From an uncultured Gammaproteobacteria bacterium (GTDB lineage: Bacteria; Pseudomonadota; Gammaproteobacteria; GCA-001735895), in assembly GCA_963835795.1 (NCBI GenBank), contig CAWIHJ010000015.1, positions 57 to 64,056 of the forward strand: a stretch of 64,000 nucleotides of DNA, in the 5' to 3' direction. Position 1 is the stretch's first letter. Each line of letters begins with the position of its first letter. Positions 58,122 to 62,014 of this stretch are shown piece after piece. The notes under the pieces were generated by a model. That model ran no database searches and was not told the DNA's origin. It saw only the letters and a list, made by a program, of their open reading frames with translations. Both the position numbers and the translations under genes were made by a program.

Positions 58122-58179
58122 GCCATCGCCAGCAATGGCACCAGTGGATACGGGAATTGACTCGCATTGTTTACCCGGT

Positions 58180-58205
58180 AAACTAATCAGCTTACTGATT
58201 AGTTT
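58180..58205. promoter_or_regulatory. Perfect 11-bp inverted repeat with a 4-bp spacer (AAACTAATCAG-ctta-CTGATTAGTTT) about 95 nt upstream of the 3-hydroxybenzoate 6-hydroxylase gene. Candidate operator.
   Basis: Direct reading. It is AT-rich, which is unusual for this genome, and no T-run follows. The regulator assignment (possibly the MarR at 61553) is an inference. Confidence 0.4.
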
Positions 58206-58299: not shown

Positions 58300-59487
58300 G
58301 TGACCCGCCTGCCCGTCATTGTTGCCGGCGCAGGTATCGGCGGCCTGGCCGCAGCACTCGGACTGGCGCGCAAGGGCTTTGCGGTCATCGTGCTCGAGCG
58401 TGCTGCCGTCATCGCCGAGATCGGCGCCGGCATCCAGATCGCGCCGAATGCCTTCCACTGCTTCGATTACCTCGGGGTTGGCGCCGAAGCCCGGGCTTCG
58501 GCGGTGTACATCGACAGCCTGCGCCTGATGAACGCCGTCGACGGCAGTGCGATCGCGACCATTCCTTTAGAAGACGAGTTTCGCCAGCATTTCGGTAACC
58601 CCTATGCCGTGGTACACCGGGCCGACTTGCACGGCGTGCTGCTCGATGCCTGTCGCCACAGTGAACTGATTGAATTACGCAGCCAGCACCGGGTCCGCGG
58701 CTATCGCCAGGACGGTGAGACGGTGCTGGTCGACTGCGAGGGCAAGACTGCCCTGCAGGGCCTGGCCCTGATTGGCGCCGATGGCTTGCGTTCGGATGTA
58801 CGCCAACAGCTGGTCGGTGACGGCGAGCCACGCGTTTCCGGGCACAGCACCTATCGTTCGGTGATCCCGACCGACCGCATGCCCGAGGATTTGCGCTGGA
58901 ATGCTGCCACGCTATGGGCGGGGCCGAAGTGTCACATCGTGCATTACCCGTTGAAAGGCTGGAAGCTTTTCAACCTGGTGGTGACCTACCACAACGACGT
59001 GGACGAAGCCGTGGCCGGTCAACCGGTCAGCAAGGACGAGGTGCGCCAGGGTTTTGCACACATTTGCCCGCGCGCGCAGCAAATCATCGAACACGGCGAT
59101 GACTGGAAACTGTGGGTATTGTGCGATCGCGATCCAATTTTGAACTGGGTGGACGGGCGCGTGGCCTTGCTCGGTGACGCCGCGCACCCGATGCTGCAGT
59201 ATTTCGCGCAGGGCGCCTGCATGGCGCTCGAAGACGCCGTTTGTCTCGCGCAGCAGTTTGCGGCGCACGGCGATGACGTGGCGACCGCCCTCGATCACTA
59301 CCAGCGCACACGGCGCGTGCGCACGGCCCGTGTGCAACTCGATTCACGCCTGATTGGCGATTACATTTACCACCCCGACGGCGCTACCGCCGAGGTCCGC
59401 AATCACCTGATGTCGCAGTTAAGCGCACAGCAATGGTACGACAAGCTCGACTGGCTGTATGGCGGCACCGGGCTGGAGACTAATTAA
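58300..59487 (+). CDS. 3-hydroxybenzoate 6-monooxygenase (FAD-dependent).
   Basis: 395-aa intact ORF with VAGAGIGGLAAALGLARKG, GADGLRSDVR and LLGDAAHPMLQYFAQGACMALEDA. Adjacent to gentisate 1,2-dioxygenase. Confidence 0.85.
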   Translation: MTRLPVIVAGAGIGGLAAALGLARKGFAVIVLERAAVIAEIGAGIQIAPNAFHCFDYLGVGAEARASAVYIDSLRLMNAVDGSAIATIPLEDEFRQHFGNPYAVVHRADLHGVLLDACRHSELIELRSQHRVRGYRQDGETVLVDCEGKTALQGLALIGADGLRSDVRQQLVGDGEPRVSGHSTYRSVIPTDRMPEDLRWNAATLWAGPKCHIVHYPLKGWKLFNLVVTYHNDVDEAVAGQPVSKDEVRQGFAHICPRAQQIIEHGDDWKLWVLCDRDPILNWVDGRVALLGDAAHPMLQYFAQGACMALEDAVCLAQQFAAHGDDVATALDHYQRTRRVRTARVQLDSRLIGDYIYHPDGATAEVRNHLMSQLSAQQWYDKLDWLYGGTGLETN

Positions 59488-59769
59488 CCCGGCGACTAAG
59501 TATGTCGTCTTCAGCCAACGCGTGTTTGTTCGCAGCAAGGCATCGGAACGCCGCTTTAGTACTTCTAAAGCAAGTTCCGATAACGCAGGCTGCGGGCAAA
59601 CACGCGTTGGCCTAACTGATTGAATATTAAATGATAGGGGCTTCTGATAAGCGCCATCTCGGCGTTGTCAGCTCTTGTCAATGGAACAACCATTACCTGC
59701 GAGCTGCGCCTTGATCTGGCGCTTATCAGAAGCCCTGAAGACGATATACTTAGTCGCCGGGTTAATTAA
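59481..59769. mobile_element. MITE-like non-coding element (~289 bp) with 34/35-matching terminal inverted repeats and two internal ~100-nt hairpins.
   Basis: Left end TAATTAACCCGGCGACTAAGTATGTCGTCTTCAG (59481-59514) against the reverse complement of the right end (59735-59769) shows one mismatch. The internal dyads are 59515-59610 and 59637-59735. The ends carry TTAATTAA/TAATTAA. It contains no ORF of its own. Confidence 0.6.
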
Positions 59770-59779
59770 GGAGCCTTCT

Positions 59780-60829
59780 ATGTCACTGACCGAAAAGCCT
59801 GTTGAAACGCCCGAACGCCTGGCCTTCTATGAAAAGATCGATCGGCTAGCCTATACCCCGCTGTGGACAGTGTTCGCCGACATCGTCACCCCGCAACCGC
59901 AAAGCCGTTGCCGTGCTCACCTGTGGCATTTCGACCAGGCGCGTGAATGGTTGCTGGAAGCGGGCGAGCTGATTACCGCCGCGGAAGCCGAACGGCGCGT
60001 GCTGATCCTGGAAAATCCCGGCATGCGCGGTGAATCGAAGATTACCACTTCGTTGTACGCGGGGCTGCAACTGGTGATGCCGGGCGAAGTGGCGCCGGCT
60101 CACCGGCATAGCCAGAGCGCGTTGCGTTTCGTCCTCGATGGCGCAGGTGCGCACACCAGCGTCGACGGTGAACGCACGCGCATGGAATTTGGCGATTTCG
60201 TGATTACGCCGCCCTGGGCCTGGCACGACCACGGTAACGACAGCGAACAACCGATGATCTGGCTGGACGGACTCGATATTCCCATGGCCAGTTTCTACGA
60301 TGCTTCGTTTGCCGAAGGTTACGAAGCCGCTGAATATCCACTATCGCGACCCGCAGGCGACAGCCTCGCGCGCTACGGCGCCAACATGCTACCGGTCGAC
60401 TACCAACCGCAGAACCAGGCTTCACCGATTTTCAATTACCCCTACGCGCGTGCACGCGAAGCGCTCGATGCGATGCAGGCCGGACAGGACTGGGATGCCT
60501 GCCACGGCCTCAAGATGCGCTATACCAATCCGCTCGACGGCAGTTCGGCGATGCCAACCATCTCGGCCTTTCTGCAACTACTGCCGGCCGGCTTCGAGAC
60601 ACTCCCCTATCGCAGTTCCGACGCCACCGTGTTCGTCGCCACCGAGGGTAATGGCCGCAGCACCATCGACGGCGAGGTTTTCGAATGGGGGCCACGCGAT
60701 ATCCTGGTGGCGCCGAGCTGGAAGTGGATACGGCACGAAACCAGCAGTGATGCCGTGCTATTCAGCTATTCCGATCGCATTGCGCAACAGAAGCTGGGAT
60801 TCTGGCGCGAGCAGCGCAGCAATACCTGA
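59780..60829 (+). CDS. Gentisate 1,2-dioxygenase.
   Basis: ORF 59675..60829. Start MSLTEKPVETPERLAFYEK at 59780 after AAGGAG. Bicupin with the motif AHRHSQSALRFVLDG...WHDHGN. Confidence 0.9.
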   Translation: MSLTEKPVETPERLAFYEKIDRLAYTPLWTVFADIVTPQPQSRCRAHLWHFDQAREWLLEAGELITAAEAERRVLILENPGMRGESKITTSLYAGLQLVMPGEVAPAHRHSQSALRFVLDGAGAHTSVDGERTRMEFGDFVITPPWAWHDHGNDSEQPMIWLDGLDIPMASFYDASFAEGYEAAEYPLSRPAGDSLARYGANMLPVDYQPQNQASPIFNYPYARAREALDAMQAGQDWDACHGLKMRYTNPLDGSSAMPTISAFLQLLPAGFETLPYRSSDATVFVATEGNGRSTIDGEVFEWGPRDILVAPSWKWIRHETSSDAVLFSYSDRIAQQKLGFWREQRSNT

Positions 60830-60849: not shown

Positions 60850-61556
60850 ATGACCGAGTACGTTCTCGAACCCCCCACCACCGCCTCGATTGCCGTCACG
60901 AATTCCGCCGCGCGTTTCCCGGTGCGCCGGATTTTTTGCGTGGGACGCAACTACGCCGCACACGCGCGTGAAATGGGCAAGGATCCGGACCGCGAACCAC
61001 CGTTTTTCTTCACCAAACCGGCCGATGCCGTGGTCGACGATAACGCCGTGGTGGCTTATCCGCCGCTCACCAATAATTTACACTACGAGGCCGAGCTGGT
61101 GGTGGCGATGGGCAGCGGTGGTGTCAATATCGACGAGCAGGACGCACTCGATCACGTCTTTGGATATGCCATCGGCAATGAATTGACGCGCCGCGACCTG
61201 CAACTCGCCGCGCGCGATCATCGGGCGGCCCTGGGACTGGGGCAAGGCTTTCGACCATTCGGCGGTGTGCGGGCCGGTGCATCCGCTTTCCGAGGTTGGG
61301 CACCTGCAGCGGGGATTGATCCGGCTGAGCGGTCAACGGCGAGACCCGCCAGCAGGCCGACCTGCAGGATATGATCTGGAGCATCCCGGAGCAGATCGCC
61401 ATCCTTTCACGCAGCATGACGATCAAACCCGGCGATCTGATTTACAGCGGCACGCCGGCCGGAGTTGGGCCGCTGTTGCCGGGTGACGTTTGCGTGGTAG
61501 AGATCGCGGGTCTCGGGCAACTCACCACGCGCATCGGTGAGCGCGCACCGCTATGA
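60850..61556 (+). pseudogene. FAH-family hydrolase (fumarylpyruvate/maleylpyruvate hydrolase-like) with two +1 breaks (~61221, ~61331).
   Basis: Three frames concatenate: ...RIFCVGRNYAAHAREMG...YEAELVVAMG...LTRRDLQLAARD | GRPWDWGKAFDHSAVCGPVHPL...LIRLS | VNGETRQQADLQDMIWSIPEQIAILSRSMTIKPGDLIYSGTPAGVGPL... Confidence 0.8.
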
Positions 61557-62014
61557 GTGTTGCGCTGACCGCCATGCCAGGACATCTGTTACGCCGCTGT
61601 CAGCAGATCGGCGTCGCCATCTTTCTCGACGAATGCAACGGGCTCGAGCTGACGCCGCTGCAGTTCGCGGTGTTACAGACGCTAGCGAGCCGTGGGGCGT
61701 TGGACCAGGTATCGCTCGGTGGCCTGACGGCGATGGATCGCAGTTCGACCGCGCAGGTGGTGGGCAAGCTGGAACAGCGCAAACTGATAGCGCGCAAGCG
61801 TTCGCTTGCGGATCAACGCGCCAAGATCGTCAGCATCACTACCCAGGGGAAATCTGTGCTGGCTGCCGCCCAGCCGCGTGTCGAAGCCGCCCAGCGGCGC
61901 ATCGTTGCCCCGCTTGACGCACAGGAGCGGAGGCAGTTGATGGTATTGTTGAAAAAACTCGCCGAAGGTAATAACGCGTCCAGCCGGGCACCCGAGAAAA
62001 CACCCCGACCGTAG
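61553..62014 (+). CDS. MarR-family transcriptional regulator.
   Basis: 153-aa intact ORF with a winged-helix region (LTPLQFAVLQTLASRG...DRSSTAQVVGKLEQRKLIARKRSLADQRAK). 4-nt overlap with the FAH gene. Confidence 0.85.
   Translation: MSVALTAMPGHLLRRCQQIGVAIFLDECNGLELTPLQFAVLQTLASRGALDQVSLGGLTAMDRSSTAQVVGKLEQRKLIARKRSLADQRAKIVSITTQGKSVLAAAQPRVEAAQRRIVAPLDAQERRQLMVLLKKLAEGNNASSRAPEKTPRP

What the first reader, a model, noticed from the sequence alone, without database searches (positions are those of the whole stretch)
59481..59769. MITE-like structured element inserted exactly at the junction between the 3-hydroxybenzoate 6-hydroxylase and gentisate dioxygenase genes
A ~289-bp non-coding element has terminal inverted repeats matching at 34 of 35 positions. 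The left end is TAATTAACCCGGCGACTAAGTATGTCGTCTTCAG and the right end is CTGAAGACGATATACTTAGTCGCCGGGTTAATTAA. Inside are two long imperfect hairpins (59515-59610 and 59637-59735) separated by an AT-rich linker. The hydroxylase stop codon (TAA, 59485-59487) lies inside the left terminal TAATTAA. The dioxygenase RBS (AAGGAG) starts immediately after the right terminal TTAATTAA. Removing the element and one copy of the terminal word restores a tight operon junction: ...GAGACTAATTAAGGAGCCTTCTATG. That is what a target-site duplication at a TTAA/TAATTAA site would produce. The element now places about 280 nt of extremely structured RNA between two genes of one pathway. It could attenuate or uncouple their expression, or stabilise the upstream message. 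I saw no second copy in this window.
Basis: partly seen in the sequence, partly recalled or inferred. Interest (0 to 1): 0.65.

Follow-up and report, generated by a model that had tools for sequence, protein, structure and literature searches.

The report
Miniature transposon inside a gentisate operon
The structured 0.29-kb spacer between the two aromatic-degradation genes is one copy of an apparently undescribed family of miniature transposons (MITEs) that is abundant in marine sulfur-oxidising bacteria; it is real, but of an ordinary kind.

Summary
Window 59481-59768 has 34-nt terminal inverted repeats (33/34 matching), two long inner hairpins and an AT-rich linker. It folds far better than shuffles (z = -21). 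There is only one copy in the window.

It is a MITE. The terminal 18-mer occurs in more than 116 loci of public genomes, including 62 loci in one Candidatus Thiodiazotropha genome. Full-length relatives, 75-95% identical, sit at unrelated loci. Internal-deletion derivatives with identical breakpoints recur at 5-10 loci each. The closest relatives of the flanking genes (84-88% protein identity) have an empty junction, either a 17-nt spacer or overlapping genes.

Three filled/empty ortholog pairs indicate a 2-bp TA duplication, with element termini TTAACCC...GGGTTAA. That matches IS630/Tc1-mariner-type mobilisation. The window copy is atypical: it carries one extra A:T pair at each end, so its exact pre-insertion junction stays ambiguous.

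No autonomous parent was found. All three stems are kept by compensatory changes (32 of 101 pairs). A regulatory effect on the operon is possible but untested. There is no terminator-like site in the element, and a weak promoter-like site points into the dioxygenase gene. I file this as a new member of a known kind, of moderate interest.

The parts
59484..59765 (+). MITE copy between the family's canonical termini (TTAACCC...GGGTTAA), 282 bp. Orientation is hairpin 1 then hairpin 2 on the + strand.
   Evidence: It aligns end to end with copies at unrelated loci. Identity is 95% to L124, 94% to L139, 92% to L125, 86% to L049 and about 75-78% to Thiodiazotropha copies.
59481..59482 (.). Left flanking TA, the putative target-site duplication copy
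   Evidence: The family consensus is Y-TA-[TTAACCC...GGGTTAA]-TA-R. Empty sites show a 2-bp gain.
59483..59483 (.). Extra A between the flanking TA and the canonical terminus (atypical)
   Evidence: Nearly all other copies read TA-TTAACCC. The window reads TA-A-TTAACCC. This A puts the terminus TAA in frame as the hydroxylase stop (sequence).
59484..59514 (+). Left terminal inverted repeat (31 nt canonical; 34 nt if 59481-59483 are included)
59485..59487 (+). Stop codon (TAA) of the 3-hydroxybenzoate 6-monooxygenase gene, supplied by the element terminus
   Evidence: L049 and L141 also have long ORFs that stop at this terminal TAA.
59514..59611 (+). Inner hairpin 1 (long imperfect stem with a tip hairpin)
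   Evidence: The stem is kept through compensatory changes between subfamilies.
59612..59637 (+). AT-rich unpaired linker
59638..59735 (+). Inner hairpin 2 (19-bp perfect basal stem plus an imperfect distal part)
59735..59765 (+). Right terminal inverted repeat
59723..59750 (+). Promoter-like hexamers TTATCA-16 nt-TATACT reading out of the element towards the dioxygenase gene. T59745, the only TIR mismatch, makes the -10 TATACT; the other subfamily copies whose right end was read have CATACT (one has TATATT).
   Evidence: The match is only 9/12, which is at chance level for a region this size.
59766..59766 (.). Extra T between the canonical right terminus and the flanking TA (atypical)
59767..59768 (.). 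Right flanking TA, the putative target-site duplication copy
59768..59773 (+). Ribosome-binding site AAGGAG of the gentisate 1,2-dioxygenase gene, 6 nt before ATG 59780
   Evidence: It is unpaired in the centroid fold of 59441-59830.
58300..59487 (+). 3-hydroxybenzoate 6-monooxygenase gene (upstream flank)
59780..60829 (+). Gentisate 1,2-dioxygenase gene (downstream flank)

Best explanation
Window 59484-59765 is one copy of a multi-copy, non-coding terminal-inverted-repeat transposon (MITE).

Anatomy and origin:
- The master form is about 277-282 bp: two 31-nt inverted termini enclose two long hairpin modules and an AT-rich linker.
- The family is abundant in Candidatus Thiodiazotropha (symbionts of lucinid clams) and also occurs in other uncultured marine Gammaproteobacteria.
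- This copy entered the short junction of the hydroxylase-dioxygenase gene pair after the host lineage split from its nearest sequenced relatives.

Mobility:
- Shown at family level: insertion occurs at TA in a Y-TA-R context and duplicates the TA.
- Inferred: the element is moved in trans by a cut-and-paste DDE transposase of the IS630/Tc1-mariner type. That transposase was not found here.

Local consequences:
- Read directly from the sequence: the element terminus now supplies the hydroxylase stop codon, the dioxygenase RBS and start are intact, and the two genes are 292 nt apart instead of 17 nt or less.
- Inferred: transcription reads through, because this copy has no terminator-like hairpin plus U-run.
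- Inferred: the bicistronic mRNA carries a very stable three-helix (Y-shaped) fold. This could serve as a processing or stability site, as described for Correia and ERIC elements.
- Inferred: a weak outward promoter-like site may add some dioxygenase transcription.

The most likely net status is a tolerated selfish insertion with at most a modulatory effect.
For: Multi-copy at unrelated loci:
- The 18-mer AACCCGGCGACTAAGTAT hits 116 loci, and the scan stopped at its cap. Of these, 62 are in Thiodiazotropha sp. DIVDIV and 31 in sp. 6PLUC1. The rest are in other Thiodiazotropha MAGs, five loci of three unclassified Gammaproteobacteria MAGs, one Chromatiales MAG, and one likely chance hit in a Proteiniphilum MAG.
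- Within these loci I found 50 paired and 79 solo or truncated termini.
- Copies of the window's own subfamily, 89-95% identical over the full length, occur in metagenome contigs. None shares the window's flanks.

Evidence of propagation:
- Deletion derivatives with identical breakpoints recur. The 192-bp form is at 10 loci and the 181-bp form at 5 loci.

Empty sites at the window's junction:
- L118-L123 read TGA + 17 nt + ATG.
- L117, the closest relative at 88% identity, has overlapping genes and no element.

TA duplication (family level):
- Filled: 6PLUC1 ACAC-TA-[element]-TA-AGATC. Empty: DIVDIV ACAC-TG-AGATC.
- L014 filled against L081 empty.
- L065 against L103.
- L077 carries a direct TG/TG flank.

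Other support:
- The element is 50% G+C in a 60% G+C window.
- No terminator-like site lies in 59481-59769, and a promoter-like site lies at 59723-59750.
- IS630-family elements insert at TA and duplicate it (PMC2170065). Known bacterial MITEs share these properties (PMC2229807, PMC2649163).
Against: - No autonomous element or transposase with these termini was found. I checked the fetched loci, plasmids and viral contigs, so the IS630-type assignment rests on the TA duplication alone.
- The window copy does not have canonical ends. It reads TA-A-TTAACCC...GGGTTAA-T-TA.
- Removing the element plus one TA leaves GAGACTAAGGAG. That has no hydroxylase stop codon and would fuse the two genes in frame (my arithmetic). 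At least one extra 1-nt event, or imprecise end cleavage, must be assumed.
- The inner hairpins are conserved by compensatory changes. A DDE transposase would not obviously require this.
- No expression data exist.
Confidence: 0.8

Rival explanations
1. Exapted MITE. The copy (or the family) is maintained for an RNA-level or promoter function. In the window it would act as an operon-internal module that uncouples or boosts dioxygenase expression, through an element-borne promoter and/or an mRNA processing or stabilising structure.
For: - All three stems are kept by compensatory changes: 32 of 101 pairs, 97.9% of cells paired, against about 34% when partners are slid.
- Non-Watson-Crick pairs are mostly G.U on one strand, 98 cells against 21 A.C.
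- Between co-directional ORFs the orientation is biased 19:4, and this does not follow local GC skew.
- The only TIR mismatch in the window improves a -10-like hexamer facing the dioxygenase gene.
- Precedents exist in Correia and ERIC elements (PMC2229807, PMC2649163).
Against: - The compensated differences separate subfamilies (master copies). Individual copies carry uncompensated private mutations and many are truncated. That points to selection on propagation rather than on host function.
- The promoter match is 9/12, at chance level.
- The window copy lies in the minority orientation.
- The next gene of the pathway is frameshifted, so the operon may be decaying.
- The ORF calls behind the orientation test are crude.
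Confidence: 0.13
2. The element targets TTAA (or TAATTAA) and duplicates it, with CCC...GGG ends, like piggyBac/IS1380-type elements.
For: - TTAA is nearly invariant next to CCCGG at both ends.
- Removing the element plus one TTAA gives a 26-nt junction with an in-frame stop, the same length as in L118 and L121 (plus my arithmetic).
Against: - Empty sites in orthologous loci lack TTAA and are 2 bp, not 4-8 bp, shorter than the flank sum.
- Under this model almost every insertion would need the 8-bp palindrome TATTAATA as its target. That is implausible for more than 60 copies in one genome.
Confidence: 0.04
3. A structure-dependent repeat moved as single-stranded DNA (REP/BIME-RAYT or IS200/IS605-like) rather than by a DDE cut-and-paste enzyme.
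For: Hairpins are conserved with compensatory changes, the non-canonical pairs are strand-asymmetric, and there is an orientation bias.
Against: - The element has long, near-perfect 31-nt terminal inverted repeats and a 2-bp target duplication. Those families lack both.
- Orientation does not correlate with local GC skew.
- No RAYT or TnpA-like ORF was seen among the recurrent or flanked ORFs examined.
Confidence: 0.03

Closest known systems
Correia repeat-enclosed elements (CREE/NEMIS) of Neisseria
   Same: - Non-coding MITE with terminal inverted repeats of about 24-26 nt and TA at the termini, with target duplication.
- Full-length and internally deleted size classes.
- Mostly intergenic and co-transcribed with neighbouring genes.
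- The RNA forms a long stem-loop, promoter-like sequences lie at the ends, and no parent transposase is known (PMC2229807, PMC2649163).
   Different: - The window element is roughly twice as long (282 bp against about 105-155 bp).
- It has a three-helix architecture with two inner hairpin modules.
- Its hosts are marine sulfur-oxidising Gammaproteobacteria.
- RNase III or IHF involvement was not tested here.
- I did not compare it with a Correia sequence; I recall no similarity (own knowledge).
RUP of Streptococcus pneumoniae (proposed to be mobilised by IS630-Spn1)
   Same: A small TIR element inserted at TA, taken as evidence for mobilisation by an IS630-family transposase in trans (PMC2229807).
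   Different: RUP is 107 bp, and its termini match a known IS. For the present family no matching IS was found.
ERIC/IRU of enterobacteria
   Same: An imperfect palindromic MITE with TA ends. It is co-transcribed with flanking genes, and its effect on mRNA stability depends on orientation (PMC2229807). An orientation bias is seen here too.
   Different: ERIC is 127 bp with a single long stem. Its effect on mRNA was shown experimentally, whereas here it is only inferred.
IS630/Tc1-mariner insertion sequences (for example ISY100)
   Same: Insertion almost exclusively at TA with a 2-bp duplication, and terminal inverted repeats bound by the transposase (PMC2170065).
   Different: The window element encodes nothing, and no cognate transposase has been identified.

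Membership tests
Bacterial MITE (non-autonomous TIR transposon) | Terminal inverted repeats | tested here: met
   The arms are 34 nt long with 33/34 matching. They are conserved across more than 100 copies.
Bacterial MITE (non-autonomous TIR transposon) | Small size and no coding capacity | tested here: met
   The element is 282 bp. Only short ORFs of 42-54 aa overlap it, apart from a mechanical TTG-started upstream extension of the dioxygenase reading frame. No protein-family search was run on them.
Bacterial MITE (non-autonomous TIR transposon) | Many copies at unrelated loci | tested here: met
   More than 116 loci carry the terminus, 62 of them in one genome. The window's own subfamily occurs at other loci in metagenomes. 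The window itself holds one copy.
Bacterial MITE (non-autonomous TIR transposon) | Empty sites at orthologous positions | tested here: met
   The window's junction is empty in L117-L123. Empty sites for other copies were also found.
Bacterial MITE (non-autonomous TIR transposon) | Target-site duplication | tested here: met
   At family level the duplication is TA. For the window copy itself the result is inconclusive. TA flanks it only if one extra A:T pair is counted as part of each terminus.
Bacterial MITE (non-autonomous TIR transposon) | A cognate autonomous IS with matching termini | tested here: inconclusive
   None was found in about 1 Mb of fetched loci, in plasmids or in viral contigs. 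Whole carrier genomes and ISfinder could not be searched.
IS630/Tc1-mariner-mobilised element | Insertion at TA with a 2-bp duplication | tested here: met
   The target context is Y-TA-R.
IS630/Tc1-mariner-mobilised element | Termini matching those of an IS630-family IS, with a DDE_3 transposase in the same genomes | tested here: inconclusive
   No such IS lies in the fetched loci.
piggyBac/IS1380-like TTAA-duplicating elements | A 4-bp TTAA target duplication | tested here: not met
   Empty sites lack TTAA, and the gain is the element plus 2 bp.
REP/BIME (RAYT-associated) | Short palindromic units (about 20-40 nt) without terminal inverted repeats or target duplication | tested here: not met
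   The element has 31-nt TIRs and a TA duplication.
Correia/CREE | Sequence similarity to the Correia terminal repeat, and a Neisseria host | not tested
   No Correia sequence was available in the tools. All carriers found here are Gammaproteobacteria MAGs.
Any curated RNA family (Rfam 15) | A covariance-model match | tested here: not met
   There were no hits at E <= 1 around the element, and none at gathering score in the whole window.

The most novel reading that the evidence does not exclude
The family may be more than a selfish DNA parasite. Three observations point that way:
- Its three-helix fold is preserved by compensatory substitutions, including in inner hairpins that a DDE transposase should not need.
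- Its non-canonical pairs are strand-asymmetric (G.U on one strand).
- Its orientation relative to neighbouring genes is biased 19:4.

Together these would mean that a single-stranded form (RNA or ssDNA) of one strand is functional. That form could be required for a structure-dependent transposition step, or it could act as a portable mRNA processing/stability or promoter module. The window copy would then have been co-opted to uncouple dioxygenase from hydroxylase expression.
Probability: 0.12. Interest if true: 0.6.

Novelty: new member of a known kind. Interest (0 to 1): 0.4.

Why it matters
The finding adds a well-defined MITE family: termini, TA target, size classes and a conserved fold. 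I found it in no paper of the searched library. The family reaches at least 62 loci in one clam-symbiont genome and spans hosts from 48% to 61% G+C. That makes it a useful marker of horizontal exchange and genome plasticity among marine sulfur-oxidising Gammaproteobacteria, and a cause of assembly breaks: contigs of Thiodiazotropha sp. 6PLUC1 end inside copies.

At this locus it shows a MITE that supplies a gene's stop codon and places about 290 nt of folded RNA inside a catabolic operon. This gives a natural test case for the Correia/ERIC-type effects of MITEs on operon expression. The finding does not reveal a new kind of system.

Tried and rejected
- **Exact-protein look-up of the dioxygenase.** Not on record.
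- **Plasmid collection.** No match to the whole element or to the terminus alone, apart from three chance 21-nt hits in Bacillus.
- **Viral contigs.** Three hits to the terminal 17-mer, all chance matches in coding sequence.
- **Search for an autonomous parent.**
  - Terminus pairs 400-3000 bp apart enclose ordinary genes such as cytochrome-like and secreted proteins.
  - ORFs recurring near copies are GGDEF, ABC-ATPase and similar paralogues.
  - No multi-copy segment of 450 bp or more exists within a genome among the loci.
  - Pairs of short terminus cores 0.8-2.6 kb apart enclose non-transposase ORFs.
- **Hit at window 12906.** Chance match in coding sequence.
- **TTAA, TAATTAA and 3-bp duplication models.** Rejected against the empty sites.
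- **L109/L093 as an empty site.** L093 carries a decayed terminus, so it is not empty.
- **Replication-strand explanation of the orientation bias.** No correlation with local GC skew.
- **Literature.** Searches for Thiodiazotropha with MITE, and for the terminus sequence itself, found nothing.
- **Covariance model.** I did not build a model of the full element, because at about 285 positions it would exceed the calibration limit.
Full report
**1. The observation**

- Inverted arms lie at 59481-59514 and 59735-59768. They are 34 nt long with 33 matching.
- They enclose two long imperfect hairpins. Hairpin 1 has arms at 59514-59536/59589-59611, and hairpin 2 at 59638-59656/59717-59735.
- A 26-nt AT-rich linker separates the hairpins.
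- As RNA, the + strand folds into a three-way junction at -182 kcal/mol. Shuffles average -83 +/- 4.7, so z = -21. The - strand folds nearly as well, with z = -18.
- The upstream ORF, 58300-59487, ends with TAA at 59485-59487, inside the left terminus.
- AAGGAG at 59768-59773 and the ATG at 59780 follow the right terminus directly.
- NCBIfam equivalog models name the flanking genes 3-hydroxybenzoate 6-monooxygenase and gentisate 1,2-dioxygenase. Both score above their cut-offs.
- The element occurs once in the 64 kb and matches no Rfam family.

**2. It belongs to a multi-copy family**

- 62 loci are in Candidatus Thiodiazotropha sp. DIVDIV.
- 31 loci are in Thiodiazotropha sp. 6PLUC1.
- The rest are in other Thiodiazotropha MAGs and in a few unclassified marine Gammaproteobacteria and Chromatiales MAGs. 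One hit, in Proteiniphilum, looks like chance.

Within these loci I found 50 elements with both termini and 79 solo or truncated termini.

Similarity to the window copy:
- The Thiodiazotropha full-length form spans 277 bp between AACCC and GGGTT. It aligns with the window copy over its whole length at about 75-78% identity.
- A copy in MAG SZUA-75 (L049) is 86% identical.
- A metagenome scan with the hairpin-2 arm found 19 contigs. The window copy is 95, 94, 92, 91 and 89% identical to L124, L139, L125, L132 and L133. None of these shares the window's flanking sequence, so they are independent insertions.

Shorter size classes are internal deletions of the master form. The same breakpoints recur at different loci: the 192-bp form at 10 loci and the 181-bp form at 5. 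So the deletion derivatives themselves spread.

The element is 50% G+C. The window is 60% and the Thiodiazotropha loci average 48%.

**3. The junction is empty in relatives**

The hydroxylase's closest homologues are 84-88% identical and come from uncultured Gammaproteobacteria. I read their contigs.
- In L118-L120 and L121-L123 the hydroxylase stop (TGA) is followed by 17 nt and then the dioxygenase ATG.
- In L117, the closest at 88%, the hydroxylase reading frame runs 11 nt into the dioxygenase gene. No element is present.
- The insertion is therefore younger than these splits.
- Homologous hydroxylases almost always end one residue after the GL[D/E/N] motif (GL[D/E/N]x-stop). The window protein ends two residues after it, GLETN-stop.

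**4.

Across the family the flanks read nnY-TA-TTAACCCGG...CCGGGTTAA-TA-Rnn. Because the terminus is an A/T palindrome, TA, TTAA or longer duplications cannot be told apart within a single copy. Orthologous filled and empty sites decide the question.
- 6PLUC1 has ACAC-TA-[element]-TA-AGATC, where DIVDIV has ACAC-TG-AGATC. The filled site was assembled from two contig ends that break inside the copy.
- L014 (filled) and L081 (empty) agree in length only if the element plus 2 bp is removed.
- L065 (a remnant) against L103 (empty) fits the same rule to within 1 nt.
- L077 carries a direct TG/TG flank.
- A TTAA duplication would also require nearly every insertion to hit the 8-bp palindrome TATTAATA.

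So the family duplicates TA. Among bacterial elements this is the hallmark of the IS630/Tc1-mariner group (PMC2170065), and it has been used to link RUP to IS630-Spn1 (PMC2229807).

**5. The window copy is atypical at its very ends**

It reads GAGAC-TA-A-TTAACCC...GGGTTAA-T-TA-AGGAG, with one extra A:T pair at each end.
- Copies of the same subfamily in metagenomes have canonical ends.
- One-sided versions of the extra base occur in L049 and L107. L023 and L066, whose other end is missing, show the same extra A.

I weighed three reconstructions of the pre-insertion junction.
- Remove the element plus one TA. This leaves GAGACTAAGGAG, which has no hydroxylase stop and fuses the genes in frame.
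- Remove only the canonical 282 bp.
- Assume an ancestral GAG ACT TAA GGAG, with insertion into the TA of the stop codon. This fits the usual GL[D/E/N]x-stop C-terminus and the Y-TA-R target, but needs one further 1-nt change.

Possible causes of the extra bases:
- Cleavage one nucleotide outside both ends of a TA-flanked donor would explain the symmetric extra A and T. Imprecise cleavage is documented for ISY100 on linear substrates (PMC2170065). This is inference only.
- The extra A could have been selected. Without it the hydroxylase would read 43 codons into the element.
- The extra bases could be assembly errors. The next gene downstream carries two 1-nt insertions.

I leave the exact junction history open.

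**6. The fold is conserved**

In an alignment of 18 copies from three subfamilies:
- 97.9% of cells in 101 predicted pairs form standard pairs.
- 32 pairs show changes on both sides that keep the pair.
- When partners are slid by 1-3 columns, pairing drops to about 34% and double changes to 1-6 pairs.
- The compensation affects both inner hairpins and the terminal stem. For example, L128, L135 and L132 changed both termini in step.
- Private mutations in single copies are mostly uncompensated, and many copies are truncated.

The constraint therefore seems to act on the propagating master copies, not on every insertion.

Non-canonical pairs are mainly G.U on the strand that is the + strand in the window, 98 cells against 21 A.C.

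Between co-directional ORFs, the copies are oriented 19:4 opposite to the window copy. With stricter ORF limits the ratios are 13:3, 7:2 and 10:1. There is no link to local GC skew.
- The ORF calls are crude, so this result is tentative.
- One possible cause: in Thiodiazotropha copies the tip hairpin of hairpin 1 is followed by AAGUUUUGAU, which the scan flags as terminator-like.
- The window copy has AAGUUCCGAU at that position and no terminator-like site.

**7. What it probably does here**

Shown:
- The element supplies the stop codon.
- The RBS and start codon are untouched.
- The spacer has grown to 292 nt.

Inferred:
- The pair is still co-transcribed.
- The mRNA carries a very stable Y-shaped structure next to a free RBS. 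As with Correia and ERIC elements, such a structure could be cut by double-strand-specific RNases or could protect the upstream message (PMC2229807, PMC2649163).
- A 9/12 promoter-like site (TTATCA-16-TATACT, 59723-59750) faces the dioxygenase gene. Its -10 owes one match to the only mismatch between the termini. The score is at chance level.

The fumarylpyruvate hydrolase gene downstream is frameshifted twice. The pathway may therefore be under relaxed selection, or the assembly may be imperfect. I judge a tolerated selfish insertion most likely, and a co-opted regulatory role possible (about 0.13).

**8. What is missing**

No autonomous parent was found. I looked between distant terminus pairs, among recurrent ORFs, among repeated segments, in plasmids and in viral contigs.

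**9. Novelty and verdict**

Full-text searches found no paper linking Thiodiazotropha to MITEs and no occurrence of the terminus sequence.
- In kind, this is a classical bacterial MITE, closest in behaviour to Correia, RUP and ERIC elements.
- It differs in size, in its two-hairpin modular core and in its hosts.
It is a new member of a known kind, of moderate interest.

Noticed in passing
window 60850-61560: The fumarylpyruvate hydrolase (FAA_hydrolase) gene after the dioxygenase is split over three frames. Two single-base insertions, near 61218 and 61331, cause this relative to the intact 234-aa gene of L121. It is either a pseudogene or an assembly error.
   Followed up: partly
window 58157-58205: A perfect 11-bp inverted repeat, AAACTAATCAG-CTTA-CTGATTAGTTT (58180-58205), overlaps the -10 of a promoter-like site (TTGACT-16-TAAACT) upstream of the hydroxylase. 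A similar imperfect palindrome lies at the same place in L117. It may be the operator of the MarR-family regulator encoded at 61553-62014.
   Followed up: partly
L021:46-86, L025, L030, L065, L074, L084, L088, L097:3057, L110 and others: A recurrent 37-bp form occurs at 9 or more Thiodiazotropha loci. It consists of a full terminus joined directly to GGGTTAA: TATTAACCCGGCGACTAAGTATGTCGTCTTCAGGGTTAATA. L008 carries an element with an intact right end and hairpin 2 (its left part is missing or decayed) where the orthologous L021 has this form. It therefore arises by in-situ deletion, probably at the GGG microhomology.
   Followed up: partly
L059 (end of contig JBEVWG010000030) and L073 (start of JBEVWG010000038): Two contigs of Thiodiazotropha sp. 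6PLUC1 break inside one copy of the element. Their outer flanks are adjacent in DIVDIV (L085, about 6765). The family therefore fragments assemblies.
   Followed up: yes
L001-L116 and L124-L141 (family-wide): Between co-directional ORFs the element orientation is biased 19:4 (10:1 with one of the stricter ORF limits). Stem mismatches are mostly G.U on one strand (98 against 21 A.C). Orientation is unrelated to local GC skew (24 against 23). The ORF calls are crude and the cause is unexplained.
   Followed up: partly
L128:258-543, L135:178-519, L132:5636-5919: Single copies or subfamilies carry matched changes in both terminal repeats. In L128, for example, GGCGAC changed to GATGCC and the partner arm changed in step. 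The two termini therefore co-evolve.
   Followed up: partly
L135:178-519, L141:1059-1400, L129:579-893, L093:3419-3722: Longer variants of 304-334 bp carry an extra G+C-rich insert in the distal part of hairpin 2. L135 and L141 carry a second insert as well. The core of the element therefore accepts additional modules.
   Followed up: no
L049:109-405 and L141:1059-1400: In other copies, too, a long flanking ORF (386 and 125 open codons) stops at the TAA of the element terminus. Insertion at gene 3' ends with a donated stop codon is thus not unique to the window.
   Followed up: partly
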